UHGV virus genome: UHGV-0109738
Reading direction: 5' to 3' (one strand)
DNA: 64,000 nt
DNA from: a virus
This document shows positions 9,693-24,420 of this stretch, in pieces (the stretch's first letter is position 1; each line of letters starts with the position of its first letter). The notes under the pieces were generated by a model. The model worked only from the letters and a program-made list of their open reading frames with translations, made no database searches and had not been told where the DNA came from. A program made the position numbers and the translations under genes.

Positions 9693-9971
9693 TTAAAACC
9701 ACTCCCTGAGCGGGCGCTCTGGTGTAACCACCCACTCACGGAACACGGAATCATCAAATCCATCGTCAAGAAGACGGATATTAACAAAGTACCCTTCGTT
9801 TCGCGTGTATTCTGGTTCTCCGTCATCAGAAACATCTGTCTCCCTGAACGTAAAACCAATCTCATCAACCAGAACGGCATTCTGCAGCTCTTCGTCCTCT
9901 TCCCAGTTAAGTTTCCTGAGAAATGCCCTGAAATCTGCTTTATCACTGAAACGCAACGTGAAATCTCTCAC
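9693..9971 (-). CDS. hypothetical protein (92 aa), possibly tail-fibre associated
   Basis: ORF track; 4-nt overlap with tail fibre gene stop. Confidence 0.4.
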   Translation of the reverse strand: MRDFTLRFSDKADFRAFLRKLNWEEDEELQNAVLVDEIGFTFRETDVSDDGEPEYTRNEGYFVNIRLLDDGFDDSVFREWVVTPERPLREWF

Positions 9972-11767
9972 TCCACAACCTCCCCAAGCTGCGCATCTGT
10001 TAGCTCTTTATGCCAGAGACGAAAATTCCTCACATGCCCAAATAAATGGCGTAATCCTGCTGTAGTTTGTCCACCAATGCGAATGGTTGCTGTACTCCGG
10101 ATATATTCCCATTTGGTTTTAGTTTCGCTGCTTAACTTACCGTTACTGACTACACATGTGGACCGTTCGGACTTTACCCGCATACCAATAAGCATTTTTT
10201 CCAGCCCGGCATTTTCATTTATTCGTCGGTCTGAACCACCTATATCACAATACGGAAAACCGTCGTACCCACCTGATGAACCAAACCCCATTACGATCCC
10301 CGCATCTGCCTGATGCCGGTATGTGTCAAAAACACGCGGCGCTGCATTTGGCGTTTTATACCAGTTCTTATGTACCTCACAAAGAACCGTAAAAGGAAGA
10401 TTATAAAGATTATTCTTAATCGGAACTGTAACCATATCGCTTGCCCGCGTTACCGGTGCCGTCCCCGTAACAATAAAAGATGATGCGCCTGTACCAGCCT
10501 CAATCTGTGGAGTGGTTACATCGAGATAATCCCCTGATGCAACCATCTGCCCTGTATCCGGAGAATACTGGACAAAACCACCAACCGTATTTTCTGTTGT
10601 ATCTGCTTTTAATGTAGCCTCAAAAAATATCCAGCCAGTTGCATCATCCTTAACAGACCTTGCTGTAACACGGCTTGTCTGACCTGTCTTGCTAATTATG
10701 CGGGTGGTAAGGTTCAGGTTTGCTGCTCCTATTGATGTCCTTACCTCCCCATCATAATGTTCAAATAAAATACGAACGGCGATATTATCAACTTCACTTT
10801 TTACCCGACAGGATATAGTTACATGCTTTTCGTCCCCTGAAGTATCAACCCCTCCGGCACTCGAATACAGTCCGGTAATGGTATGCGCTTTACTTGTACC
10901 AACAATCGAATCCTGTACGACAAACCGGCCATAATTAAACCCAAAACTATCTGTGCCTGTTTCTGTAACGTCCAGTGAAGTTGACTTATTCCACTTCGAA
11001 GGGTCTGTACTGTTTATTAACAGGTTTGTGCGCGTCCCCTCAATCAGTAATCCTTCGCGTTCAAAACGTGGCTCATTAATACCAGCCACAGTTAAAACAC
11101 CTGATTTGTTAATGTAAGTAGCAGTGCTTGCGCGTGAGAAAGAAACAACTTTATCTGATGATATTGTTTTTTCTTCCCCATTAATGGTTACTTTTTTAGT
11201 ACCAGGGCCGTAGCCCGTGATCATATCGAGAGAATCGTTAAACGGTATCCATACGTCCGGCAGCGGTTGCAAAACATACGCGTAAGGCTGTGCGGTCTGA
11301 TTGGCGTATTCGTGGGCTTCGTCTCTGTATGTCTTAGCTGAATCGGCTGCGCTTGTCGCTGTTGTTGCAGCGTTGGTTGCAGTGGTAGCTGATTGTGATG
11401 CTAATTTTGAGGCTGAAATCACATCTTTGTTGTCGCTAAAAAATTCAACTGCGTCCGCTATTTCTGATTCTTTGCCCTGATAGTAACGCAGTGTTTCGGC
11501 GACATCCTGAGCAAGACCATCCACAGAGATCGAATCTGAAAGCAGGATGCTAAATTTAGTTCCAGCCGGAATAGCCGGACTTGCCGCAGGAGTTACCGAC
11601 AAACTTGTTGCGCTTTTTACCTTTGTGATTGAAAAAATCTGCACCGGATCGCTAATGGCAATAAGAGTGCAACCCACTCTGATCAGAGATAATGCGGCGT
11701 TGAATTCAGTCCCTGCCCCGGTAACTGTGTTTCCGCTAACAGCTATAGTGCCTGTTGTGTAAATCAT
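9968..11767 (-). CDS. side tail fibre protein
   Basis: 599 aa; N-terminal MIYTTGTIAVSGNTVTGAGTEFNA and TTATNAATTATSAADSAK region typical of lambdoid Stf proteins. Confidence 0.75.
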   Translation of the reverse strand: MIYTTGTIAVSGNTVTGAGTEFNAALSLIRVGCTLIAISDPVQIFSITKVKSATSLSVTPAASPAIPAGTKFSILLSDSISVDGLAQDVAETLRYYQGKESEIADAVEFFSDNKDVISASKLASQSATTATNAATTATSAADSAKTYRDEAHEYANQTAQPYAYVLQPLPDVWIPFNDSLDMITGYGPGTKKVTINGEEKTISSDKVVSFSRASTATYINKSGVLTVAGINEPRFEREGLLIEGTRTNLLINSTDPSKWNKSTSLDVTETGTDSFGFNYGRFVVQDSIVGTSKAHTITGLYSSAGGVDTSGDEKHVTISCRVKSEVDNIAVRILFEHYDGEVRTSIGAANLNLTTRIISKTGQTSRVTARSVKDDATGWIFFEATLKADTTENTVGGFVQYSPDTGQMVASGDYLDVTTPQIEAGTGASSFIVTGTAPVTRASDMVTVPIKNNLYNLPFTVLCEVHKNWYKTPNAAPRVFDTYRHQADAGIVMGFGSSGGYDGFPYCDIGGSDRRINENAGLEKMLIGMRVKSERSTCVVSNGKLSSETKTKWEYIRSTATIRIGGQTTAGLRHLFGHVRNFRLWHKELTDAQLGEVVE

Positions 11768-11831: not shown

Positions 11832-11964
11832 TGGGCTTATACATAATGTATTTTTTGATCTATATCAACATACGAAATGATAGCTTCTGCGGTGATTTGC
11901 TCATCGGATGGGTGGATCATCACGAACAACAAATGACAGTAAAACAAACAGTAAGGTGAATACA

Positions 11965-12210
11965 ATGAAAAAACTAATTGTTGCTTGCATCTTATCAGCT
12001 CTGTCTTTTGGTGCTTTTGCTTCTGTAAATTCGACAGATAAGAGTGATGCTGGCACTGCTCAATATGGTGATACTGGCCTTGATAACCAACGTTCGAGTT
12101 ATTTCAATACTGACTCATGGAAAGAAAAACAACTACAAGGTAAAATTATTGACAGTGAATGTAATTTACCTATCCATTTTTCTGGTGTAAATGATGGGTG
12201 TAAAAAATAA
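11965..12210 (+). CDS. secreted small protein (moron), 81 aa with signal peptide
   Basis: MKKLIVACILSALSFGAFA signal sequence; AAGGTGA SD; opposite strand to tail genes; own terminator. Confidence 0.55.
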   Translation: MKKLIVACILSALSFGAFASVNSTDKSDAGTAQYGDTGLDNQRSSYFNTDSWKEKQLQGKIIDSECNLPIHFSGVNDGCKK

Positions 12211-12221
12211 AAACAATGCAT

Positions 12222-12250
12222 AAAAAAACGGGGCTTATGCCCCGTTTTTT
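12222..12250. terminator. bidirectional rho-independent terminator
   Basis: AAAAAA-cggggc-ttat-gccccg-TTTTTT between moron ORF and J stop. Confidence 0.75.
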
Positions 12251-15200
12251 ATGCTGTCGTTGATGTTCTAAATGATCCGGTGCCTCTTGCTACTATCATT
12301 GTTGGAGAATACAACGCGGTACAATATGCGTATCCTTCAGATGATGATGTTTGAGGACAATATATTTTCCCGATAATATCTGATGCTTTTAAACCAGAAA
12401 AAGCGCATTGCACTGTTAATGTGCATCCACCATAAGGCACGTAATATGAAATTGTTTTGTTTTTATCTCCGCAACTAAACGTTACGTTATAAGTGGATCT
12501 ATATTCACCAGACATTAATGAAATAGTCGCCATAAGCATAACTGATTTCGTCAATGCATTATCCGTGCTGTCTTTATATGTGATGGTTGCGCTATAACTT
12601 CCGTTATGCCCAAGCACTCGATCTGGACCAACCCCCATGTTAGCAACGTCACCGACAAATGACTTTGCCTCTACTGTACCTTTAAACTTCCCGCTTGTGG
12701 CCTGAATCTCACCAGTGAATTTACCAGATGTTGCGTACACCGTACCGCGTACAGTGACGTTGTTGAACTCCGCATTGCCGTTTTTATTTAGCATCCAGCC
12801 AGCCGAACCAGCTTTATAGTTGGTTGACTGAATTTGCTGCGCAATCTTCGCGGTAGTGATTGATGCGTCTCTGATCCACGCATCACGGATGTAGCAAGCA
12901 CCGTTAGTAACATAGAACGGGGTCTGATAGGAGCCACCTGCCGCAGTCATAAGCACGAAACGGTCAACGAGGAAAATACACTGCGATTGAACGTTAGTCC
13001 CGCTACCAGTAAGGCCGAGCGACATTCCTGTAGCGTATTTCATACCGTTTTTATCAGTGGCAATCTTAATTGAATATGACGCATCAACGTTACCTTTGAA
13101 GTCAGTCAGTGCTTTTGATGTCGTTTCTATCGCCGTTGTGTTTCCGTTAATAGTTACTTTCAACTGGTCGATTCTGGTTGACAATGCCTCGTCTGCCGTT
13201 GCCATAGCCTGTGACCATTCCGTGATGCTTGAGTTTACATCGTCGAAAGATGCCGAGATCTGGCCAAATTTTTCCGCGCTTGATGTTTCATGCGTAGAAA
13301 GTGCAGTTGACACTTCGGATACTTTCGAATTAATCGTACTGGTAAGCGATGAGTTAAGGCTGCTGATTGCGTCAGTGCGTGCATTCTTCTCATCTGCGAT
13401 CGCTTTATCCATCCTGGTTACGTTGCTTGTCACCTTGCTATCGAGCGTGGAAATTGACGCATTAACCCCGCTAATAGCTTCTGCGCGTGCGCTCGCCTCA
13501 TCTGCGATTGCTTTATCAAGACGGGAAACGCTCGCGTCGGTCTTGCTTTCAAGACTACTGACGCTGGCGTTAACGTTGCTAATAGCTTCTGCGCGTGCGC
13601 TCGCCTCATCTGCGATTGCTGTGTCTACCCTTGCTATTTCCGCTTTTGTTTTTCTTTGTCCTTTCCTGTATTTCGCCTCAATAACAGTGCTCATCTTGCT
13701 TTGCGCCATTGAGTTATTAATAAGCGCCAGAGATGCGTTTTGCAGACCTGCTTTCGCCTGAACTATCTCGTCGCTGTTTTTATCAACCTCACTTTTAACG
13801 CTGCCAAGCGACGCGCTGATACCTGATATCGCCTGAGCGCGTGTGCTTGATTCGTCAGCGATAGCTTGATCAAGACGGCTAACACTGGCATTTGTGTTAT
13901 TTTCAAGCGTTGTTAAATCAGCTTTAACCACTGTTATTGCGTCGCTTCTTGCCTGCGTTTCATCTGATATTGCCTTATCGAGGCGCTTAACACTGGCGTC
14001 AGTTTTCTTGTCAAGCGTTGAGATACTTGCGTTCACGTCGCTGATAGCCTGAGTACGCGCACTTGTTTCGTCTGCAATTGCCCGATCAAGACGGTTTACG
14101 CTGGCGTCAGTTTTCTTGTCAAGATTGCTTATTGAGGCATTTACACCGTTAATAGCTTCAGCGCGAGCGCTGGCCTCGTCAGCTACTGCGCGTTGCACAT
14201 TAGAGATCTGACCTTTAAGGTTTGTGTCCATCACATTCATTTCTGCCGTGATGGTTTCCAGTGATTCCGCTGTCGCTTTTTTCTCTTCAGCGATAACGTT
14301 GTCAATGCGGTCAATTTCCGCTTTCGTCTCTGTCCTGCCTTTCTTGTACTGAGCGGTAAGAGTTACGCGAGTGTTAGTCTGTGCAAGCGAGTTATTAATA
14401 AGAGCAAGTGAGGCGTTTTGCAGACTTGCTTTTGCTTGCGCTAGTTCGCTGCCAACTTTTTCGCTAGACACCTCTAGCGAGTCGATTCTCGACTCATGCT
14501 GTCCAATATCATCGGCGTTTTCCTTAACCTTTTTATAAAGATCTTCCGTTTCTTTTTTAAGTGTGTCCGTGTCAGCTTTTATTGATCCCGTTTCTATGGT
14601 TAGGTTGTCAGTTTCAGTCCTTAAATCGTCAGTTATATTGGTCAGATTATCAGTTGCAGTTTTGAGGTTGTCAGTAGCAGTTTTAAGGTCATTCGTAGCG
14701 CTTTCGATAAGATCAGTGCGGTCGCCTAGATCTTTAATGTCACCAACCATTTCTTTAAATTGTTTGGAATTCATTACGTCTTTGGTGACGTAATCGGTAA
14801 TTTCGTCAAAGTTTTCTGTTGGCTTACCTGACGCTTCCACAAAGTCAGACACACCAAAAGCGTTACGCGTGCGCACATAAACGTAATATATGTGACCTGT
14901 ATTCATGCCGCCAAACGTCCACTGATGACCACGCCCCGTATATTGTGCTTTAGTGGTTACTGATGCCGGGTCGGTGATCTGTGTTTCACCTGAGTAATAA
15001 AACTCGTAACTGGTATCAGTGGTAAGCGTTGTTCTGCTGATCGGATACACTGTTGCCTGGAATACACCAGGAACCCAATTAACGCCAATCGGGGCTGCTG
15101 GTGCACCAATAACCAGATCAACTATACTCTCAGCGCCCTTCATGCCAGTATCATTACGACCGCGAATGCCTAATGAGTAGGTTCCTGAATCAATGCCATA

Positions 15201-17219
15201 AAAATCATAACTGTAATTCGTAGTTTCGTAGCTTTTAACCACAGCGCCGTCGGCGTTATACACGCGAATCTCAAAGGTCAGGCGACGCGTTGTCGTCTGT
15301 GTTTCCCATGTTGCGCGACATTGAACCGTTTCAGATCCAACGTTTAACACCTTCAGATTTTCAATGTTCGGCACGCGGAAGTGATTAAGCGTGTCGTTAT
15401 TGATCTCGAAGATTGCGCCATTATCGACTACGGCCTGCTTATGTGGATCATGCTGTGCGGCCTCGATGGTGTATACGCTGTTATTTTCTGTTTCTGCTAC
15501 GCTGGTGATTCGACATAAAACGGGTTTTGCTGCGTTGGTTGATACAGCAAAAACAGTACCGTTACGAATCCATGCCGGGGCGGATGCAAGGGTAATTTTG
15601 TTTCCGCTAACTCCAGTGATCTGGTGTTTTTTAAACTTGCCATCGCTATCAAGCAGGCTGATCGTATCTCCAGCGGAGATATATTTGGCATCAACCTTGT
15701 CTACAGTTATTACTTTGCCATTGTTCGCAACGATGCGACCGCCTAAGCGAGCGCCTGCGCGGTTATTGTCCAGGATTTCGATAATATCACCTGGCGTAAA
15801 GTGAATCGCGTCACGGGCCATTTTAAACGTGAATTTTGACGGCTCGCGTTTTGCTGTTTCTATCAGCCATTTGCCAGCGCGGTACGCTTGCCCGCGTGAC
15901 GTGCAACCGAAAGCCTCTAGCGTGGTTTCGTTATAACCATCGCGGGCGATCAGTTCATCGTCTGCCACGTATTCTTTTGATTGCTCCCAGCCGTTTTCCG
16001 GGTCAGTCCATGACACAATCACGGCGTTGTAAGATTCTGCGCGGGCAATACTTGAACGAGTAAACGCGCCATCAACTACGTTTGCATTTGTAATGGTGGC
16101 GATTGGATCTTGTGGCGCATCAATCATCACGGTAAGGCGCTGCCCGTCCCATAATGCAATACCACGGAACATGCCTGCAATATTATCCAGTAAGTCGCGT
16201 GCGCTAATTTGTTCCGTGATGTAAGCATTAAGCGTCATGCGAGGTTCAAAGCCGCCGTAACCATCGCTAACCAACTGATCGCAGTATTGGGAAAGCGTAT
16301 ATAATGCGCCATCGTCAACATCAATGTAACCAGCGTGGCGAGCAAGTCCGAAACGTTCATTTTTAACCAGATACCGGAAAAGCCATGCAGGGTTATTGGT
16401 GTACGCTTTTTTAAATCCACCAAGCCATAAACCGGAATACGTGCGCGTTTCAGGGTTATAGTTGTCCGGCACATCAACAATCAGTCCGCGCAGATGATAA
16501 GTGCGGGCAGGAGTATCAGTATACTGGTCATGGTCAATTACCGCGCCAGCTACAGCGGTATGAGGGTAAGACAGGTTATCGTCGATTATCTCGCTGTAAC
16601 TGCTCCACCGCGTATCATTACGAAGAAGATCGCTTTTGCTGTCTGGCGTTACGCGACGAACGCGAATATCAAACGGCTTTTCATCCGGTGCGTTGATAAC
16701 GTGAGCTTCCAGGTATTCACCACTCTGTTTACCAGGCCCGATCGTAATGTCTTTAACCAGCGACCACGTCGATGATGATGATGGCTTAACATCAACCATT
16801 AACATGACTGACGTGTTATATTGATTGCCCTTATCATCTGACTGAACTAGAGCATCAACGCCAACATTCAATCTAACGCGGGTGACGTTTGGGTCTGAAA
16901 CGGTCCTGATTATTGGCGTATCGTGAGTTACCTTCGCATTGACAATAACAGTTGATTCAATGGCGTTAAAACCGTTAATCGGTGATTGGTCAGCTGTGCC
17001 ATTGCGCCACGCTATACTTACCCCAGGGATTGACGTATTTCCGTTGGCGTCAGTAACAGGCGTGTCATTAAGCATCACATCATTTAATGGCGCTTTCTGG
17101 TTTACCGGGCCGTATATCGGCCCCTCGCTGAGAATGTCTAAAACACGATAAAACTGTTTATGATACAGGTTATCGTTCAATAAATGTGGTGTTTTGGCTT
17201 TGCCGCCGCCGCTACTCAT
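12249..17219 (-). CDS. J: host specificity / central tail fibre protein J (expanded, 1656 aa)
   Basis: N-terminal and C-terminal regions align with lambda J (e.g. RVRRVTPDSKSD..WSSYSEIID); about 500 aa repeat-rich coiled-coil insertion. Confidence 0.9.
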   Translation of the reverse strand: MSSGGGKAKTPHLLNDNLYHKQFYRVLDILSEGPIYGPVNQKAPLNDVMLNDTPVTDANGNTSIPGVSIAWRNGTADQSPINGFNAIESTVIVNAKVTHDTPIIRTVSDPNVTRVRLNVGVDALVQSDDKGNQYNTSVMLMVDVKPSSSSTWSLVKDITIGPGKQSGEYLEAHVINAPDEKPFDIRVRRVTPDSKSDLLRNDTRWSSYSEIIDDNLSYPHTAVAGAVIDHDQYTDTPARTYHLRGLIVDVPDNYNPETRTYSGLWLGGFKKAYTNNPAWLFRYLVKNERFGLARHAGYIDVDDGALYTLSQYCDQLVSDGYGGFEPRMTLNAYITEQISARDLLDNIAGMFRGIALWDGQRLTVMIDAPQDPIATITNANVVDGAFTRSSIARAESYNAVIVSWTDPENGWEQSKEYVADDELIARDGYNETTLEAFGCTSRGQAYRAGKWLIETAKREPSKFTFKMARDAIHFTPGDIIEILDNNRAGARLGGRIVANNGKVITVDKVDAKYISAGDTISLLDSDGKFKKHQITGVSGNKITLASAPAWIRNGTVFAVSTNAAKPVLCRITSVAETENNSVYTIEAAQHDPHKQAVVDNGAIFEINNDTLNHFRVPNIENLKVLNVGSETVQCRATWETQTTTRRLTFEIRVYNADGAVVKSYETTNYSYDFYGIDSGTYSLGIRGRNDTGMKGAESIVDLVIGAPAAPIGVNWVPGVFQATVYPISRTTLTTDTSYEFYYSGETQITDPASVTTKAQYTGRGHQWTFGGMNTGHIYYVYVRTRNAFGVSDFVEASGKPTENFDEITDYVTKDVMNSKQFKEMVGDIKDLGDRTDLIESATNDLKTATDNLKTATDNLTNITDDLRTETDNLTIETGSIKADTDTLKKETEDLYKKVKENADDIGQHESRIDSLEVSSEKVGSELAQAKASLQNASLALINNSLAQTNTRVTLTAQYKKGRTETKAEIDRIDNVIAEEKKATAESLETITAEMNVMDTNLKGQISNVQRAVADEASARAEAINGVNASISNLDKKTDASVNRLDRAIADETSARTQAISDVNASISTLDKKTDASVKRLDKAISDETQARSDAITVVKADLTTLENNTNASVSRLDQAIADESSTRAQAISGISASLGSVKSEVDKNSDEIVQAKAGLQNASLALINNSMAQSKMSTVIEAKYRKGQRKTKAEIARVDTAIADEASARAEAISNVNASVSSLESKTDASVSRLDKAIADEASARAEAISGVNASISTLDSKVTSNVTRMDKAIADEKNARTDAISSLNSSLTSTINSKVSEVSTALSTHETSSAEKFGQISASFDDVNSSITEWSQAMATADEALSTRIDQLKVTINGNTTAIETTSKALTDFKGNVDASYSIKIATDKNGMKYATGMSLGLTGSGTNVQSQCIFLVDRFVLMTAAGGSYQTPFYVTNGACYIRDAWIRDASITTAKIAQQIQSTNYKAGSAGWMLNKNGNAEFNNVTVRGTVYATSGKFTGEIQATSGKFKGTVEAKSFVGDVANMGVGPDRVLGHNGSYSATITYKDSTDNALTKSVMLMATISLMSGEYRSTYNVTFSCGDKNKTISYYVPYGGCTLTVQCAFSGLKASDIIGKIYCPQTSSSEGYAYCTALYSPTMIVARGTGSFRTSTTA
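13380..14220. repeat. intragenic tandem repeats within J (coiled-coil repeat region)
   Basis: Exact 43-bp repeat gctaatagcttctgcgcgtgcgctcgcctcatctgcgattgct at 13473 and 13582; protein repeats RLDKAIADExSARxxAIS..NASIS..KTDASV. Confidence 0.7.
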
Positions 17220-17232
17220 GGTTTTTCTCCTG

Positions 17233-17763
17233 TTAACTTACAACGTCTAATGCATCTCTGTTGTTGCTTGTGTCTATGCCTAACGATCCGACGTTTGAAC
17301 CTATTTTCATTTCACCCAACAGGATTGGCACTGGTCTACCCTGGCCTACCTTGTTTTCAACGCTGGTGTAGGTGTTGTTCGTTATGGTGTTATCTTGTGC
17401 GCTTTCTGCTGACGTCTTTATCTTCAGGTTGCGAGACATAAAGATCGAGAACGCAACGCTAACCACTGAAACACCAATCAAGATCCAACCCACAACACCA
17501 ATCCCCGCAATACCACCTTCAACTACTGGAGCAATAATGATGGTTGTTCCGTCAGGGTATTTACTGTTAACCGCTGCTGGCGCGGTCTTTTCGTCATAAT
17601 CTTTTCCGGCAATTCGTAAGCGCAAAGGTGTATTTAAAAAAGCCTTCTTGAACTCCTGATCCTGCGCGGTCAATAGGCTAAGTCCTTGCGCTGGCGTATC
17701 AACGTTTAAACACACTTTGCCGTAATATCTTCGAAGATTGCCCGTAAATCTAAATTTGAGCAT
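17233..17763 (-). CDS. I: tail assembly protein I
   Basis: C-terminal motif PVPILLGEMKIGSNV resembles lambda I (VLPVLYGEMRVGSRV); position between K and J. Confidence 0.75.
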   Translation of the reverse strand: MLKFRFTGNLRRYYGKVCLNVDTPAQGLSLLTAQDQEFKKAFLNTPLRLRIAGKDYDEKTAPAAVNSKYPDGTTIIIAPVVEGGIAGIGVVGWILIGVSVVSVAFSIFMSRNLKIKTSAESAQDNTITNNTYTSVENKVGQGRPVPILLGEMKIGSNVGSLGIDTSNNRDALDVVS

Positions 17764-18437
17764 TTGTCAGATCTCCATATTGAATGCGTTTGTCGAACAT
17801 ACGCGGGCCGCATTTGCTCGCGGCGGCTTAGCAGTCCGGCATTGTCATGATGCAAAACAGTGTTATCGCCCAGGAAAATCATCGCGTGGCATGGGTCAGC
17901 ACCTTTAAACGGCTGGCGGATAATCACGTCACCAGGCTGAATGCTTTGCGCATCAACCATGAAAAACCCGTTCAATGGCAGGTTTTTTATGTACAGGTTT
18001 TCCCCACGCAGCCACCACCCATCGTGGCGCTCAAAGTCAGGTAGATCCACGCCGCAAAGGTGATAGGCGTCACGGAAAAGCGAGTAGCAGTCTGTTTTCC
18101 CGTGCTCAAATTTACGGCCTAACAGGTGCGCTACCGGGAGAAACTTTCTCACCCTGCCACCTGAACATAAAAACCACGGCAGGCCGGAAATAACATGCTG
18201 TTGTCGATCCCGTGCCGACAATACCAGGGTATCATCGGTGTGGGAGTGGAAAACTGCTGTTATAACGCCTAATTCGTCAGCTTTGATATAATCGTCAGGC
18301 GAGATTTTAAAGCTGTTGTGCGGCGTTTCAGACACGTTTAAGCACGGGTAAAAATAATCGTTATCTATCACCAGGCCGCAAACTTCCTCACGCGGGTGTG
18401 CTGCTGCATAGCGAATCATTTTATCTTCAAGCGCCAT
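17706..18437 (-). CDS. K: tail assembly protein K (MPN/JAB plus NlpC/P60-like)
   Basis: HSHTDD metal-binding motif; position between L and I; start set at ATG just after L stop. Confidence 0.7.
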   Translation of the reverse strand: MALEDKMIRYAAAHPREEVCGLVIDNDYFYPCLNVSETPHNSFKISPDDYIKADELGVITAVFHSHTDDTLVLSARDRQQHVISGLPWFLCSGGRVRKFLPVAHLLGRKFEHGKTDCYSLFRDAYHLCGVDLPDFERHDGWWLRGENLYIKNLPLNGFFMVDAQSIQPGDVIIRQPFKGADPCHAMIFLGDNTVLHHDNAGLLSRREQMRPAYVRQTHSIWRSDKCSNLDLRAIFEDITAKCV

Positions 18438-18439
18438 AA

Positions 18440-19144
18440 TCAACCCACCTTGCTTGATCCTGGGAAACATGAAATTGGTAACGGATTCGGGCGCGGAAAA
18501 CGCAAACGGCAACCGCTTAGGCGGTGGCTGCATTTATCCAGCTTTGGATCGCTTGTCGATTCGTCTTTGTCAGTAGCTACAGGGCCGCCACTATATCCGC
18601 AACCGTCGCCGCGATATTGCCACTGGCAAACGTCAGCGAGGATTGTGCGCCCAGGGATAACCGCTTTATCAGCATCAATTGGCGTTGACAGTTCATATTG
18701 CACCTGGTCCGCTGTTTCTTCGCTCATCGCTTCAACGACGTAAAAAGACACAGCCTCAATAGATGGATCTGCATCTGGATTGCCGTTGGGGAAGTTAACG
18801 GCGTCCAGGTATTTTACTTCCACCTGGCGGCGAGTAACCTTCATTCCTCGCAGGTCGTTGAAATCGTTATTCATCCCGGTGATTAGCCCGCCAATGTTGG
18901 CTACTACCATTTGGGGGCGTGAGTAAACGCCTTCGTTTTTCATTTCGAAGCCAGTTGCCTCGATCGGGTAGCTGTTGTAAGCCAAGCCCTTCCAGATAAC
19001 CTGGCCGTAATAGCCATTCGCGCCGGAATGGAAGCGGATAACCTCGCCACCCAGGGGCGTAAGGTCCAGCTCAAATAAGTCAATGACCGCGCCGACTCCG
19101 GCATCGACGGAATCAATAATCATCTCTCTCGGAATATTGCGCAT
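18440..19144 (-). CDS. L: minor tail protein L
   Basis: Aligns with lambda L throughout (e.g. YLDAVNFPNGN, CQWQYRGDGCGYSG, DKCSHRLSGC). Confidence 0.9.
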   Translation of the reverse strand: MRNIPREMIIDSVDAGVGAVIDLFELDLTPLGGEVIRFHSGANGYYGQVIWKGLAYNSYPIEATGFEMKNEGVYSRPQMVVANIGGLITGMNNDFNDLRGMKVTRRQVEVKYLDAVNFPNGNPDADPSIEAVSFYVVEAMSEETADQVQYELSTPIDADKAVIPGRTILADVCQWQYRGDGCGYSGGPVATDKDESTSDPKLDKCSHRLSGCRLRFPRPNPLPISCFPGSSKVG

Positions 19145-22077: not shown

Positions 22078-24420
22078 TTATTTGCGGCGCGGTTGCAACA
22101 TTCCGCCCGGTCTTTGAGATTCCCTTGTTATCATCTTCATAGCTACACGTTCCATTGTCTGTTCAAGTCTGCGGCTGTCTTCGTCGCTGAATCCGTTCGT
22201 TGTCTGAATGCTGATACTGACAGGCATACTAATACCGCCACCGCCGCCAATATCACGGCCCGGAATAACTCTGCCGTTCTCGCCAGGAATCATATATTGA
22301 TTCCCGTTAGGCGTCTGGAATAGCTCCGTCCTGTTGTTTTCCCCGACACGGTACAAGTTGCCACCAATGACGCTACCACCATTAAAGCGCCTGCCACCGA
22401 AGATGGATGTTGCCAGAGACATGATCGCAGTGAGTGCCGCAGAGCCAGCCGCCGCCCAGCTACCGCCAGTTGATGCTGCTGTTGCCGCCGCTGCCGGGGC
22501 CGCTGCCGCAGCGATGCTACCCTGAGCGGCTACCGCACTTGCCGTTGTGCTGGCCTGCGTTGCCTTGCTTTGTGTCTCCATCATGATTTGATCTGCTATC
22601 CAGTTGGCGGCTATGTCAGAAAGCCTGTTGCCGATGTTCCCTAGTATATTGCTCCCTAAGTTAGCAAAAACATCGCTCAATGATTGAGTGCCGTTAAGCA
22701 GGCCAACAAGCGCATTGCTCATGCCACCTTTAAGGCCATTAACGCAATCACCGATAAGGCCGTTAGTGTCGCTTTGCGCCTGCCACTGCTCCCATTTCAG
22801 ATCGCGGATCTGCTGCTCATAGGCTAACAATTCCTGTTTCTGTTGTGCTTCTGTAGCGCCCAGGTCGATAAGCATTTGCTTACGGACGGCCCATTCATTT
22901 TGTGCCTGCTGGATGGGGTCAACCTCGCCTTTTAGCTGGTCCATCGGGCTAACTATTTGCGACCATTTATCACGCAGTTCATCTACCGGGATCTGCGCTA
23001 ATTCTTCTTTCAGTTCCTTGCCGATCCCTTTTTGCGCGGCGCGGTACTCAAGGAGCGTGATTTTACCCTGGGCAAATGCAGCATCAATGGCCTTGCCGTT
23101 CTCCAACGCTTTGCGCATGGCGGCGGCGTCTTTGTTGTACTGATCAGAAACGCTTATACCTTTGTCACCAAGCCGATCAGCTTCCGATTTCTTCTCTTTT
23201 TTCTGTTTTTTCGGCTTGTCTACTGGCTTGTCGAATCCGGTAATCGCTCCGTCATTGGCAGCATTCTGTTCATTTTTCCTTGCTTCTTCTGTAGCCTGGA
23301 TTGCTGCGGTCAGATCATCCTGTAGTTGCATGACCTTGCCAACGGTCTTCCCGTATTTCTTCTCGTAGTTGCTGTTATATTCGTCGGTTTGCTCTCCTAC
23401 TACCTCCTTCACCCATTTATAGCCATCCATTAGCGCCTTGATTGGCGTCACCATTGCGATGATCTTCTCTGCCACCTCTCCAGCCTTAACAGCCACATCA
23501 TCAAACATGTCGATAAATTCGCTACCAGCCGTTTTGAGTGTGTCGAAGCAGGTTTTAGCGAATTTAGCGCCATCGCCAAGCCCTTTAACGCCTTTCGTGA
23601 TCAAGTCGATAGCTGAAACAACGCCATCTGACACGCCAAAAAGATCATCCAACTGCTCAACAAGGCCCATAATTTCTACTTTAAGCTCATTGATAGCCAT
23701 GCCGGATGTGCGCGGCAACTGAGCAAACTTATCGTTTGTTTCCTGCGTAGCCGCCTGTATTGCGTTAACCATCCTTTCAGCCGTGATCTTGCCGTCCAGC
23801 ATTTCGGCGCGGAACTGGCCCATTGATAATCCCATATGGCGGGCCATTGTTTGTACGATGGTCGGCGTGTTTTCAAGCAGGCTGTTAAATTCTTCGGCAC
23901 GAAGAACACCGCCGTCGATAGACTGACGGAATTGACGCATTGAGTTAGACATCTGTTCCGCTGACGCGCCGCCTAATGCACCCATTTTCTGAATAGTGCC
24001 AACCAGGTTAAGCAATTGCCCTTCCGTAGCGGAGGTGTTTTTTAGTGAGATAGCCAGGCCTTGCCATAATTCGCCAGTATCTTTCAGGCTCTGCCCCGTC
24101 TCCCTGGATATTTCTTTCAGACCATCAAAAACCCGCCCGGCAGATTCCGCGTCGCCTGTAAGCATTTTGATTTTGACGCGTAGCATTTTGGCCTGCTCTG
24201 CCATTTCCATAAACTGTCTAACGGCCTCGGCAGCAATTAGCAGATGGATAACCCTGGTCAGTGCTTTGATTGATGTTTTCAGTGTGTTTACCTGGCGATC
24301 GGCCTGTTTAGCACCGCGCTCTATACGGTCAAAGGCCTGGTCTGCCTGTCGTTGTGCTACAAGAAGTTGTCCTGTTTTTGCGTCAACTTCGTAATAAATT
24401 GTGCCTACACTGGTAGCCAT
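22078..24420 (-). CDS. tail tape measure protein
   Basis: 780 aa, alpha-helical, Gly/Ala-rich C-terminal region; located between tail chaperone position and M. Confidence 0.85.
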   Translation of the reverse strand: MATSVGTIYYEVDAKTGQLLVAQRQADQAFDRIERGAKQADRQVNTLKTSIKALTRVIHLLIAAEAVRQFMEMAEQAKMLRVKIKMLTGDAESAGRVFDGLKEISRETGQSLKDTGELWQGLAISLKNTSATEGQLLNLVGTIQKMGALGGASAEQMSNSMRQFRQSIDGGVLRAEEFNSLLENTPTIVQTMARHMGLSMGQFRAEMLDGKITAERMVNAIQAATQETNDKFAQLPRTSGMAINELKVEIMGLVEQLDDLFGVSDGVVSAIDLITKGVKGLGDGAKFAKTCFDTLKTAGSEFIDMFDDVAVKAGEVAEKIIAMVTPIKALMDGYKWVKEVVGEQTDEYNSNYEKKYGKTVGKVMQLQDDLTAAIQATEEARKNEQNAANDGAITGFDKPVDKPKKQKKEKKSEADRLGDKGISVSDQYNKDAAAMRKALENGKAIDAAFAQGKITLLEYRAAQKGIGKELKEELAQIPVDELRDKWSQIVSPMDQLKGEVDPIQQAQNEWAVRKQMLIDLGATEAQQKQELLAYEQQIRDLKWEQWQAQSDTNGLIGDCVNGLKGGMSNALVGLLNGTQSLSDVFANLGSNILGNIGNRLSDIAANWIADQIMMETQSKATQASTTASAVAAQGSIAAAAAPAAAATAASTGGSWAAAGSAALTAIMSLATSIFGGRRFNGGSVIGGNLYRVGENNRTELFQTPNGNQYMIPGENGRVIPGRDIGGGGGISMPVSISIQTTNGFSDEDSRRLEQTMERVAMKMITRESQRPGGMLQPRRK

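What the first reader, a model, noticed from the sequence alone, without database searches (positions are those of the whole stretch)
12249..17219. J protein expanded by about 500 aa of repetitive coiled-coil sequence with exact DNA repeats
The N- and C-terminal regions align with lambda J, but the central region contains nested repeats (about 28 aa RLDKAIADExSARxxAIS..NASIS..KTDASV units within about 170-aa duplications) encoded by near-exact DNA repeats, for example a 43-bp exact repeat at 13473 and 13582. Such repeats are prone to recombinational length variation and could modulate tail-fibre reach or antigenicity.
Basis: seen in the sequence. Interest (0 to 1): 0.5.

Follow-up and report, generated by a model that had tools for sequence, protein, structure and literature searches.

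The report
Length-variable coiled-coil shaft in tail-fibre J
A prophage tail-tip protein of the lambda J family has its short three-helix "shaft" enlarged about ten-fold by 7-, 36- and 46-residue helical modules, and related E. coli prophages carry different numbers of these modules, so the reach of the receptor-binding tip varies in fixed steps.

Summary
The gene is on the minus strand (12249-17219, 1656 aa) and belongs to the lambda J / central-fibre family. Its N-terminal 851 aa align with lambda J 1-858, and aa 1356-1528 align with lambda J 838-1000. About 550 aa lie between them where lambda has a 53-aa alpha-helical shaft.

The repeat unit is 36 aa (108 nt), not 28 aa, and there are eight copies. 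They form two super-blocks, each a 46-aa leader followed by 36-aa units, offset by 226 aa rather than 170. An upstream array of eight heptads was not reported. The 43-bp exact repeat lies at 13470/13578. Otherwise the units share only 40-68% DNA identity.

The region has no proline, is predicted almost entirely helical, and shows hydrophobic periods of 3.50 and 3.60. It is homologous to the cryo-EM-solved trimeric coiled-coil shaft of F-type pyocin central fibres.

Relatives have shafts of 255-832 aa, and counted module numbers predict the length exactly in 14 of 16 architectures. One relative carries exactly the +1 unit expected from unequal crossover at the 43-bp repeat.

Whether the shaft is only a spacer or also a fold-switching trigger remains untested. 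A 2025 paper mentions the repeats in one sentence.

The parts
12249..17219 (-). J-family central tail-fibre / tip attachment gene, 1656 aa
   Evidence: ORF list and translation. Pfam and PHROG phrog_31 'central tail fiber J'. Alignment to lambda J 8iyk.
14787..17219 (-). aa 1-811: hub domains plus two FNIII/Ig domains, lambda-J-like
   Evidence: Pfam FNIII-A_GpJ 88-214, Phage-tail_3 335-492, Ig_J 609-707, Ig_J_second 709-811. Query 1-851 aligns to lambda J 1-858.
14532..14699 (-). aa 841-896: eight in-register heptads (ATNDLKT/ATDNLKT...), the canonical coiled-coil part of the shaft; copy number varies among relatives
   Evidence: TRF finds a period-21 array at 14649-14699. Self-offsets of 7/14/21 aa. 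Hydrophobic period 3.50. Alignment of relatives shows gain or loss of whole heptads.
14310..14447 (-). aa 925-970: 46-aa leader A (ELAQAKASLQNASLALINNS...YKKGRTETKAEID); contains a predicted helix break at aa 959-963
   Evidence: Repeat family D4. Leader HMM hits. AF2 break between helices 819-958 and 964-1173.
13770..14309 (-). aa 971-1150: array A, five 36-aa units
   Evidence: Repeat families D1/D2 with 108-nt spacing. HMM copies at 971, 1007, 1043, 1079 and 1115.
13632..13769 (-). aa 1151-1196: 46-aa leader B; predicted helix break at aa 1174-1188
   Evidence: Repeat family D4. Leader HMM. AF2.
13308..13631 (-). aa 1197-1304: array B, three 36-aa units
   Evidence: AF2 with alignment gives one helix over aa 1197-1352, pLDDT 93-98.
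13470..13512 (-). 43-bp exact repeat, copy in unit B2 (aa ~1236-1250, KAIADEASARAEAIS)
   Evidence: Exact-repeat scan.
13578..13620 (-). 43-bp exact repeat, copy in unit B1; inferred crossover site for the +1-unit allele of strain GN04592
   Evidence: The hybrid unit in L009 is described.
13993..14015 (-). 23-bp exact repeat; its partner is at 14101-14123 in array A (LDKKTDAS)
13134..13307 (-). aa 1305-1362: non-repetitive distal helix of the shaft, homologous to the distal shaft of the F2 pyocin fibre
   Evidence: Query aa ~1204-1482 aligns to 25vf_A 911-1185, E 5e-29. AF2.
12720..13133 (-). aa 1363-1500: Phage_Tail_Tip domain (the beta-prism 'central straight fibre')
   Evidence: Pfam PF09327, E 1e-39. 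Alignments to lambda J, F2 pyocin, 9l9p and 23gd.
12249..12719 (-). aa 1501-1656: distal receptor-binding end; not lambda-like, receptor unknown
   Evidence: No alignment to the lambda receptor-binding domain. 100% identical in three prophages with different shaft lengths, and 25-42% identical to the mEp515 and mEp013 ends.
9968..11767 (-). Side tail-fibre gene (599 aa) whose conserved N-terminal anchor accompanies every long-shaft J examined
   Evidence: PHROG tail protein. N-terminus resembles the depolymerase 7vyv N-terminus and the C-terminus resembles the GTA head spike fibre. The first 100 aa are 74-100% identical in all long-shaft loci.

Best explanation
The gene encodes the trimeric central tail-fibre protein (the lambda J / pyocin CFP family) of an mEpimmI-type E. 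coli prophage. Its alpha-helical shaft links the FNIII domains that close the tail tip to the distal beta-prism and receptor-binding end. In lambda this shaft is 53 aa. Here it has been enlarged to about 550 aa.

The shaft is modular:
- a helix with eight canonical heptads (hydrophobic period 3.50);
- two super-blocks, each a 46-aa leader followed by 36-aa units (five, then three);
- a non-repeated distal helix.

Each 36-aa unit has ten core positions (spacing equivalent to 7+7+11+11, period 3.60). That predicts a nearly untwisted three-helix bundle. An invariant Glu9 and a mostly conserved Arg13 (i, i+4) sit in the core line. If fully extended, the helical part (aa 819-1352) would span roughly 80 nm, against about 8 nm in lambda (inferred from 0.15 nm per residue).

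Length evolves by unequal homologous recombination between units. Because whole 7-, 36- or 46-aa modules are gained or lost, the helical register is kept. The shaft also serves as the junction where hub and receptor-binding modules are exchanged.

Most likely function (inferred): the shaft sets how far the receptor-binding end projects from the tail tip and side fibres, for example through O-antigen or capsule. At least its distal, pyocin-homologous part probably relays receptor binding to tip opening by the helix-to-beta conversion seen in lambda and F-type pyocins.
For: Shown:
- Family and context.
- Insert boundaries against lambda J.
- Repeat anatomy.
- Helix: no Pro in aa 820-1362 and periodicity 3.50/3.60, with 0 of 2000 shuffles reaching it. 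AF2 single-sequence gives helices 819-958, 964-1173 and 1189-1381. AF2 with 48 sequences gives helix 1197-1352 at pLDDT 93-98.
- Homology of aa ~1204-1482 to F2 pyocin fibre 911-1185, E 5e-29. That region was solved as a three-stranded coiled coil (PMC13455828; bioRxiv 10.64898/2026.02.24.707460).
- Unit conservation over 133 distinct units: E9 100%, A12 and A22 98%, R13 83%.
- Copy-number variation: 3-15 units in 14 fetched homologues, and shafts of 290-710 aa among the long-shaft J genes in IMG/VR contigs.
- Quantised length: shaft = 552 + 36*d(units) + 46*d(leaders) + 7k, exact for 14 of 16 architectures over a range of 255-832 aa.
- Mechanism of change: the GN04592 allele is 108 nt longer. 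Its extra unit is 'RLDK' (head of B2) fused to the tail of B1, which is what crossover inside the 43-bp repeat predicts, and it is 94% identical to its neighbour. MIN12 compared with 2-331 shows clean loss of one unit.
- Module exchange: dS is 0.41 in the hub and 0 in the C-terminal part against strain 2017C. An identical receptor-binding end occurs with shafts of 423, 552 and 588 aa.

From papers: the lambda shaft (aa 809-861) partly converts to beta-sheet on LamB binding and releases the FNIII closure (PMC11101478). The 163-aa coiled coil of F7 pyocin switches to a beta-prism.
Against: - No trimer model could be computed. Oligomeric state and continuity of the coil rest on homology and on J being a trimer.
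- AF2 puts helix breaks in both leaders, so the shaft may be kinked or jointed and shorter than 80 nm.
- The paper on the related mEp phages reports ~130 nm tails and, in the passages I searched, no unusually long tip fibre.
- No phenotype is linked to length. The window's allele is identical in eight IMG/VR contigs, so it is stable rather than hypervariable.
- Only two repeat pairs are long enough (23 bp or more) for efficient RecA recombination.
- The monomer AF2 run gave no beta-prism alternative, so the trigger role of the repeats is untested.
Confidence: 0.7

Rival explanations
1. The whole repetitive shaft, not only its distal part, is a metastable spring. [quoted passage not shown] This shortens the fibre several-fold, draws the tail tip to the outer membrane and opens it. 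Unit number would then tune both reach and stored energy.
For: - The family precedent is F7 pyocin, with predictions for 21 of 24 siphophage fibres.
- Each unit matches the published SxSxxMxxLxS pattern three times. There are 32 matches in aa 820-1380, against 9.7 +/- 3.1 in shuffles.
- The invariant Glu9-Arg13 i+4 pair resembles the buried Glu-Arg bridges described for F7.
- A+S+T make up 36% of the region. Small residues are 84-98% conserved at positions 5, 7, 12, 16 and 22, which flank the core positions. That is more constraint than a plain spacer needs.
- It would explain how a binding signal crosses ~80 nm.
Against: - The motif is degenerate and the eight units are not independent, so the enrichment is inflated.
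- Small residues flanking core positions can also be explained by tight trimer packing.
- AF2 monomer with an alignment gives a confident helix only.
- He et al. state that lambda and T5 do not show the extensive switch.
- Only aa ~1204-1380 are homologous to the pyocin switch region.
Confidence: 0.2
2. The shaft is a purely passive, rigid or jointed spacer. Its length is matched to the thickness of host surface layers and to the side fibres. Triggering uses only the last few dozen residues next to the beta-prism, as in lambda.
For: - The same receptor-binding end occurs with three shaft lengths.
- Changes are quantised and preserve the helical register.
- Shaft length and side-fibre length correlate weakly and positively: Spearman 0.43-0.48, p about 0.03, not corrected for phylogeny.
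- Helix prediction is confident.
Against: - It does not explain 100% conservation of Glu9, or the near-invariant small residues at outward-facing positions, in units whose DNA has diverged to 40-68% identity.
- It leaves unexplained how receptor binding is relayed to the FNIII closure ~80 nm away.
Confidence: 0.35
3. The 46-aa leaders are docking collars for the side fibres, as the Gly kink of the F2 pyocin shaft is. The super-block duplication adds a second tier of side fibres, and the 36-aa arrays set the spacing between tiers and the tip.
For: - Side fibres of F-type pyocins attach to a kink in the central-fibre shaft.
- AF2 breaks the helix exactly in both leaders, at YKKGRT and YRKGQR.
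- Leaders are the best conserved shaft module and occur once or twice.
- Every long-shaft J is followed by a side-fibre gene with a conserved N-terminal anchor, whereas short-shaft relatives have a different downstream gene.
Against: - No interaction was modelled.
- The side-fibre N-terminus matches a depolymerase anchor, not the pyocin side-fibre or lambda Stf N-termini.
- In lambda the side fibres attach to a collar on the tube, not to J.
- Helix breaks in a single-sequence monomer model are weak evidence.
Confidence: 0.2
4. The expansion is a selectively neutral by-product of repeat recombination, or serves antigenic variation, and has no role in adsorption geometry.
For: Length varies widely among otherwise similar prophages. 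No phenotype data exist.
Against: - Units are ancient, with 40-68% DNA identity, yet strongly conserved in protein pattern.
- In 14 of the 16 distinct architectures the length is accounted for entirely by whole, register-preserving modules.
- No frameshifted or decayed alleles were seen among the 14 annotated homologues fetched.
- Related 33-42-aa 'AIADExxAR' repeats occur in tail proteins from other sources, including one from Rhizorhabdus sp..
- Phage virions are not under adaptive immune selection in the usual sense (own knowledge).
Confidence: 0.1

Closest known systems
Phage lambda gpJ (tip attachment protein J; PDB 8iyk, 8xcj)
   Same: The domain order is the same: hub, two FNIII/Ig domains, alpha-helical shaft, beta-prism fibre, receptor-binding end. 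The N-terminal 851 aa align end to end, and the gene follows L, K and I. In lambda the shaft is a three-helix bundle that is remodelled on LamB binding.
   Different: The shaft is ~550 aa here against 53 aa in lambda (809-861), and it is built of repeats. The receptor-binding end is unrelated. The NCBIfam lambda_TipJ model scores 726 bits, below its cut-off of 1950.
Central fibre protein of F-type pyocins (PyoF10 / PA0641; PDB 25vf) and the siphophage fibres predicted to fold-switch
   Same: The distal shaft plus beta-prism (aa ~1204-1482) is homologous to F2 911-1185, E 5e-29, a better match than to lambda. [quoted passage not shown]
   Different: The pyocin shaft is ~170 aa, non-repetitive and described as a continuous heptad register with one stutter. 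Here it is three times longer, modular, copy-number polymorphic, and has a 3.60 period in the arrays. Fold switching is not shown here.
J proteins of mEpimmI phages (mEp021, mEp515, mEp013, mEp010, mEp044, mEp554; PMC11893012)
   Same: They are the closest sequenced phages, at 84-88% DNA identity over most of J and the tail module, and share the same shaft modules. The paper notes that J sizes differ and that J 'contains repeats of different length (positions 950-1475)'.
   Different: This allele has 8 units and 2 leaders, against 5 units in mEp515 and mEp013. It also has a different receptor-binding end: 25-42% identity to those of mEp515 and mEp013, which use OmpA and LamB respectively. The paper gives no unit structure, fold, or mechanism of variation.
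Repeat-length polymorphic fibrous surface proteins, such as trimeric autotransporter stalks, streptococcal M proteins, and the collagen-like repeats in Streptococcus thermophilus phage host-specificity proteins (own knowledge, not tested here)
   Same: Fibre length changes in whole repeat units through recombination between DNA repeats, without loss of fold.
   Different: These are unrelated sequences and different fibre folds or organisms. The comparison is by analogy only.

Membership tests
Lambda J / central tail-fibre (tip attachment) protein family | N-terminal hub domains and two FNIII/Ig domains recognisable by family models | tested here: met
   Pfam FNIII-A_GpJ, Phage-tail_3, Ig_J and Ig_J_second. 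phrog_31, E = 0. 8iyk aligns 1-851 = 1-858.
Lambda J / central tail-fibre (tip attachment) protein family | C-terminal beta-prism 'tail tip fibre' domain (PF09327) | tested here: met
   PF09327, E 1e-39, aa 1363-1500.
Lambda J / central tail-fibre (tip attachment) protein family | Position in the tail module after tape measure, L, K and I homologues | tested here: met
   TMP 22078-24420, L 18440-19144, K 17706-18533 and I 17233-17763, all on the minus strand.
Lambda J / central tail-fibre (tip attachment) protein family | Scores above NCBIfam's cut-off for lambda_TipJ itself | tested here: not met
   726 bits against a cut-off of 1950. It is a family member but not a lambda J equivalent. RefSeq names its relatives 'phage tail tip fiber protein'.
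Lambda J / central tail-fibre (tip attachment) protein family | Homotrimer at the tail tip | not testable with these tools
   Only monomer AF2 was available.
Trimeric alpha-helical shaft of central fibres (lambda AHS, F-pyocin shaft) | Continuous helix between FNIII-2 and the beta-prism | tested here: met
   AF2 gives helices 819-958, 964-1173 and 1189-1381, and 1197-1352 at pLDDT 93-98. No Pro in 820-1362.
Trimeric alpha-helical shaft of central fibres (lambda AHS, F-pyocin shaft) | Sequence homology to a shaft solved as a three-stranded coiled coil | tested here: met
   25vf_A 911-1185, E 5e-29. Structure described.
Trimeric alpha-helical shaft of central fibres (lambda AHS, F-pyocin shaft) | Canonical heptad (3.5) periodicity throughout | tested here: not met
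   The period is 3.50 only in aa 820-924. The 36-aa arrays have period 3.60, with 10 core positions per 36 residues.
Fold-switching central fibres (coiled coil to beta-prism; He et al. 2026) | SxSxxMxxLxS pattern and Glu/Asp-Arg i+4 pairs in the helical region | tested here: inconclusive
   32 motif matches against 9.7 +/- 3.1 in shuffles, three per unit. E9 is 100% and R13 83% conserved. The motif is degenerate and the units are not independent.
Fold-switching central fibres (coiled coil to beta-prism; He et al. 2026) | Both conformations predicted by multimer AlphaFold at different alignment depths | not testable with these tools
   Only monomer AF2 was available, and it gave helix.
Fold-switching central fibres (coiled coil to beta-prism; He et al. 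2026) | Experimentally observed post-binding beta-prism | not testable with these tools
   Needs cryo-EM or cryo-ET.
mEpimmI phage group | High nucleotide similarity and synteny of the tail module with mEp021-type phages | tested here: met
   84-88% identity over J and the tail module to mEp021, 010, 013, 044, 515 and 554. Only the 1-25000 part of the window was compared.

The most novel reading that the evidence does not exclude
The entire ~550-aa modular shaft is a unit-by-unit fold-switching spring. Receptor binding at the distal end nucleates coiled-coil-to-beta-prism conversion, which propagates through the 36-aa units. This retracts an ~80-nm fibre, pulls the tail tip onto the outer membrane and opens it. 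Natural copy-number alleles (3 to 15 units) would then be a ready-made series tuning reach and stored energy. The two leaders could additionally act as docking collars for side fibres.
Probability: 0.2. Interest if true: 0.8.

Novelty: new variant of a known kind. Interest (0 to 1): 0.45.

Why it matters
The alpha-helical shaft of J-type central fibres has recently been shown to be the element that converts receptor binding into tip opening, in both lambda and F-type pyocins. This prophage family offers the same element in a ten-fold enlarged, modular form. Natural alleles differ only by whole 7-, 36- or 46-aa modules, and some carry an identical receptor-binding end. That is a ready-made allelic series for testing two questions: whether shaft length sets reach through O-antigen or capsule, and whether the helix-to-beta switch can propagate along a long shaft.

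There is also a practical point. The repeats break short-read assemblies, and many database entries for this protein are 'partial' fragments that start or end in or near the shaft. Lengths and copy numbers should therefore be trusted only from complete or long-read assemblies. The prophage also carries the cytolethal distending toxin operon, so its host range has some medical relevance.

Tried and rejected
- **Word-indexed protein search with the repeat region.** It returned mostly fragments and missed the full-length relatives, so it was not useful for copy-number work. I used annotated E. coli genomes and IMG/VR loci instead.
- **Pfam scan of distant repeat-bearing proteins.** No domains were found, so I could not say what those proteins are.
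- **AF2 with a 48-sequence alignment, to look for an alternative beta-prism conformation.** It gave only a confident helix. Because the model is a monomer, this neither supports nor refutes fold switching.
- **dN/dS on the shaft against the 95%-identical allele.** There were too few substitutions in the shaft (16 synonymous, 9 non-synonymous) to interpret. The test instead exposed a mosaic junction.
- **Fold-back (antiparallel) bundle of the three AF2 helices.** Rejected as the native arrangement. Array A varies from about 3 to 12 units while array B stays at 3-4, which is incompatible with length-matched antiparallel packing.
- **Lambda-Stf-like or pyocin-like side-fibre anchor.** Not supported. 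The side-fibre N-terminus matches a depolymerase anchor only.
- **Antigenic variation.** Nothing testable here.
- **PF28217.** It is precomputed on fragments of this protein but is absent from the local Pfam copy, so I could not identify it.
Full report
**What is at the coordinates**

The interval 12249-17219 is one ORF on the minus strand encoding 1656 aa. It sits in a minus-strand tail module. Upstream are a tape measure gene (22078-24420) and homologues of lambda L (18440-19144), K (17706-18533) and I (17233-17763). A side-fibre gene follows at 9968-11767.

Pfam finds five domains: FNIII-A_GpJ (aa 88-214), Phage-tail_3 (335-492), Ig_J (609-707), Ig_J_second (709-811) and Phage_Tail_Tip (1363-1500). 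PHROGs gives 'central tail fiber J' with E = 0. Against solved structures, lambda J (8iyk) aligns over query 1-851 = J 1-858 (E 1e-181) and again over query 1356-1528 = J 838-1000 (E 1e-6).

So the protein is a J-family central fibre. Roughly 500-550 residues occupy the place where lambda has its short alpha-helical shaft, residues 809-861 (PMC11101478). The last ~130 aa do not match the lambda receptor-binding domain.

**Checking the repeats**

The longest exact direct repeat in the gene is 43 bp, at 13470 and 13578, an offset of 108 nt. Codon shuffles give a mean maximum of 12.2 and never more than 14. A second exact repeat of 23 bp lies at 13993/14101.

The repeat finder shows seven copies of a unit with 108-nt spacing, plus a pair 678 nt apart. 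A BLOSUM self-comparison of the protein peaks at offsets of 36 and 226 aa, with a separate signal at 7/14/21 aa.

The unit is therefore 36 aa, not ~28, and the higher-order duplication is 226 aa, not ~170. The anatomy in aa is as follows:

| Segment | aa | Content |
|---|---|---|
| Heptad array | 841-896 | eight heptads |
| Leader A | 925-970 | 46 aa |
| Array A | 971-1150 | five 36-aa units |
| Leader B | 1151-1196 | 46 aa |
| Array B | 1197-1304 | three 36-aa units |
| Distal helix | 1305-1362 | non-repeated |

Apart from the 43-bp stretch, the units are old. Pairwise DNA identity between units in this gene is only 40-68%, so 'near-exact DNA repeats' is an overstatement.

**Is it a coiled coil?**

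- The region aa 820-1362 has no proline or cysteine and is 36% Ala+Ser+Thr.
- The periodicity of hydrophobic residues is 3.50 in the heptad part and 3.60 in the 36-aa arrays. None of 2000 shuffles reached the observed power.
- Over 133 distinct units from this gene and its relatives, positions 2, 6, 17, 20, 24, 27 and 35 are 88-100% hydrophobic. Glu9 is invariant and Arg13 is 83% conserved. Both sit in the line where core residues are expected.
- Ten core positions per 36 residues, equivalent to 7+7+11+11, predict a nearly untwisted bundle rather than a canonical left-handed heptad coil. This follows from coiled-coil geometry and is an inference.
- AF2 without an alignment predicts three long helices (aa 819-958, 964-1173, 1189-1381), with breaks inside both leaders. 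With a 48-sequence alignment, aa 1197-1352 is a single helix at pLDDT 93-98, followed by the beta-rich tip domain.
- Residues ~1204-1482 align to residues 911-1185 of the F2 pyocin central fibre (25vf_A), E 5e-29. This is a stronger match than to lambda J. That pyocin region has been solved as a three-stranded coiled-coil shaft (PMC13455828; bioRxiv 10.64898/2026.02.24.707460).

The trimeric state here is inferred from this homology and from J being a trimer. It could not be modelled.

**Length variation among relatives**

The nearest phages are the mEpimmI group (mEp515, mEp013, mEp021, mEp010, mEp044, mEp554) and MagusPhagus, at 84-88% DNA identity. Thirty-five complete E. coli genomes carry relatives. 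Six of them carry a 94-95% identical gene of the same length.

In 14 fetched homologues, J is 1358-1935 aa with 3-15 units. An IMG/VR scan added 48 loci. Shaft lengths there were 80 aa (lambda-like) and 290-710 aa. The window's allele occurred in eight contigs.

Shaft length is exactly reproduced in 14 of 16 distinct architectures by 552 + 36 x (difference in units) + 46 x (difference in leaders) + the pre-leader difference. The unit and leader counts come from independent HMM hits. The pre-leader difference is a whole number of heptads in 15 of 16 cases. The range is 255-832 aa. All length variation is therefore quantised in register-preserving modules.

**How the length changes**

Strain GN04592 carries a J gene 108 nt longer than the window's. 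Its extra unit reads RLDK (the head of unit B2) followed by the tail of unit B1, and is 94% identical in DNA to its neighbour. This is exactly what unequal crossover inside the 43-bp exact repeat would produce.

MIN12 and 2-331 differ by clean loss of one unit, with a hybrid junction.

The shaft is also a junction for module exchange. Against strain 2017C, dS is 0.41 in the hub, 0.04 in the shaft and 0 in the C-terminal part. The last 156 aa are 100% identical in prophages with shafts of 423, 552 and 588 aa.

The allele itself looks stable, and only two repeat pairs are long enough for efficient homologous recombination (the length requirement is from my own knowledge).

**How it most likely works**

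Shown: a modular, helical, length-polymorphic shaft lies between the FNIII closure and the beta-prism and receptor-binding end.

Inferred: at 0.15 nm per residue, the helical part would span about 80 nm if straight. That compares with ~8 nm in lambda, ~25 nm in F-type pyocins, and 38-123 nm across the family.

The simplest role is a spacer. It would set how far the receptor-binding end projects, for example through O-antigen or capsule to an outer-membrane protein. Related mEp phages use LamB or OmpA.

In lambda, the shaft is remodelled into beta-structure on LamB binding, which frees the FNIII domains and opens the tip. In F7 pyocin, the whole 163-aa coiled coil switches to a beta-prism, and blocking the switch abolishes killing. 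Because the distal shaft here is homologous to the pyocin shaft, I expect at least that part to act as the trigger relay.

Whether the repeated units also switch is open. Points in favour:
- Each unit fits the published SxSxxMxxLxS pattern three times (32 matches against 9.7 +/- 3.1 in shuffles).
- Each unit carries the Glu-Arg i+4 pair.
- Small residues are conserved at positions flanking the core.

Points against:
- The motif is degenerate, and the units are not independent.
- Tight trimer packing could explain the small residues.
- Monomer AF2 shows only helix.

A further non-exclusive idea is that the leaders are kinks where side fibres dock, as at Gly955 of the pyocin shaft. AF2 breaks the helix in both leaders. 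Every long-shaft J is followed by a side-fibre gene with a conserved N-terminal anchor.

**Comparison with what is known, and novelty**

The protein is a member of the J / central-fibre family, though it scores below NCBIfam's cut-off for lambda TipJ itself. It belongs to the mEpimmI-type J proteins. The paper describing those phages states that J sizes differ and that the C-terminal region 'contains repeats of different length (positions 950-1475)' (PMC11893012). It gives no unit structure, fold or mechanism.

Long coiled-coil shafts in central fibres are known from F-type pyocins and are predicted in many siphophages. Three things appear new relative to the searchable literature: the ten-fold, modular enlargement; the 36-residue, 3.60-period unit with its invariant Glu; and the quantised copy-number polymorphism with an identified crossover site.

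I rate it a new variant of a known kind, of moderate interest. It becomes more interesting if the repeats prove to be fold-switching units.

A profile of the unit finds only 32 cluster representatives among 1.84 billion proteins at E <= 0.001. Some are tail-like proteins from other taxa, with related 'AIADExxAR' repeats of 33-42 aa.

**Limits**

No multimer modelling, no structure of this protein, and no phenotype data were available. Fibre length, trimeric state, spacer function and fold switching are all inferences. The correlation between shaft and side-fibre length (Spearman 0.43-0.48, p about 0.03) is not corrected for shared ancestry and should be treated only as a hint.

Noticed in passing
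window 6793-9001 (minus strand): A cytolethal distending toxin operon lies just downstream of the side-fibre gene. The middle ORF (7362-8183) is CdtB (NCBIfam NF011787, E 9e-120). Bases 6694-9209 are 97.5% identical to cdtA/B/C of phage cdtI. The toxin cargo therefore sits in an mEpimmI-type prophage here, not the lambdoid cdtI phage backbone.
   Followed up: partly
window 11965-12210 (plus strand; the listed ORF starts at 11908): A small divergently oriented gene lies between J and the side fibre. It encodes an 81-aa protein with an N-terminal signal peptide (MKKLIVACILSALSFGAFA|S) and has no family match. Relatives carry Cor or other small hypothetical genes at this position. The mEpimmI paper places its Lpp superinfection-exclusion lipoprotein genes within the structural gene cluster. 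This gene may be an exclusion factor.
   Followed up: partly
window 12249-17219 compared with L003 (E. coli 2017C-4173W12): Divergence within J is mosaic: dS 0.41 in the hub (aa 1-811), 0.04 in the shaft and 0 from aa 1305 to the end. The recombination junction lies within the shaft.
   Followed up: partly
L004 (FAH), window, L009 (GN04592): The last 156 aa of J are 100% identical in three prophages whose shafts are 423, 552 and 588 aa long. Receptor specificity and shaft length assort independently.
   Followed up: yes
proteins P0003-P0012 and P0052-P0095: Most database entries matching the shaft or tip region are 'partial' proteins that start or end in or near the shaft. This indicates that short-read assemblies break in this gene. 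Some carry a Pfam accession (PF28217) that is absent from the local Pfam copy.
   Followed up: no
window 9968-11767 (minus strand), and the downstream fibre genes of L001-L043: The side fibre has an N-terminal anchor like that of a phage depolymerase (7vyv) and a C-terminal part like the Rhodobacter GTA head spike fibre. Its first 100 aa are conserved (74-100%) in all long-shaft loci. Side-fibre length correlates weakly with shaft length (rho 0.43-0.48, not phylogeny-corrected).
   Followed up: partly
window 13057-13761 (plus strand): A 234-aa antisense ORF lies entirely inside the repeat arrays of J. It is most likely a by-product of the repetitive Ala/Ser-rich coding sequence on the other strand.
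   Followed up: no
proteins P0024, P0026, P0027, P0028, P0016, P0017: Distant proteins carry tandem 'AIADExxARxxAI' repeats with periods of 33, 35, 36 or 37 aa; other hits in the same search have 42-aa periods. P0016 is a DUF1983 protein from Rhizorhabdus sp. The motif is therefore older and more widespread than this E. coli prophage family. Pfam finds no domains in five of the six; P0028 was not scanned.
   Followed up: partly
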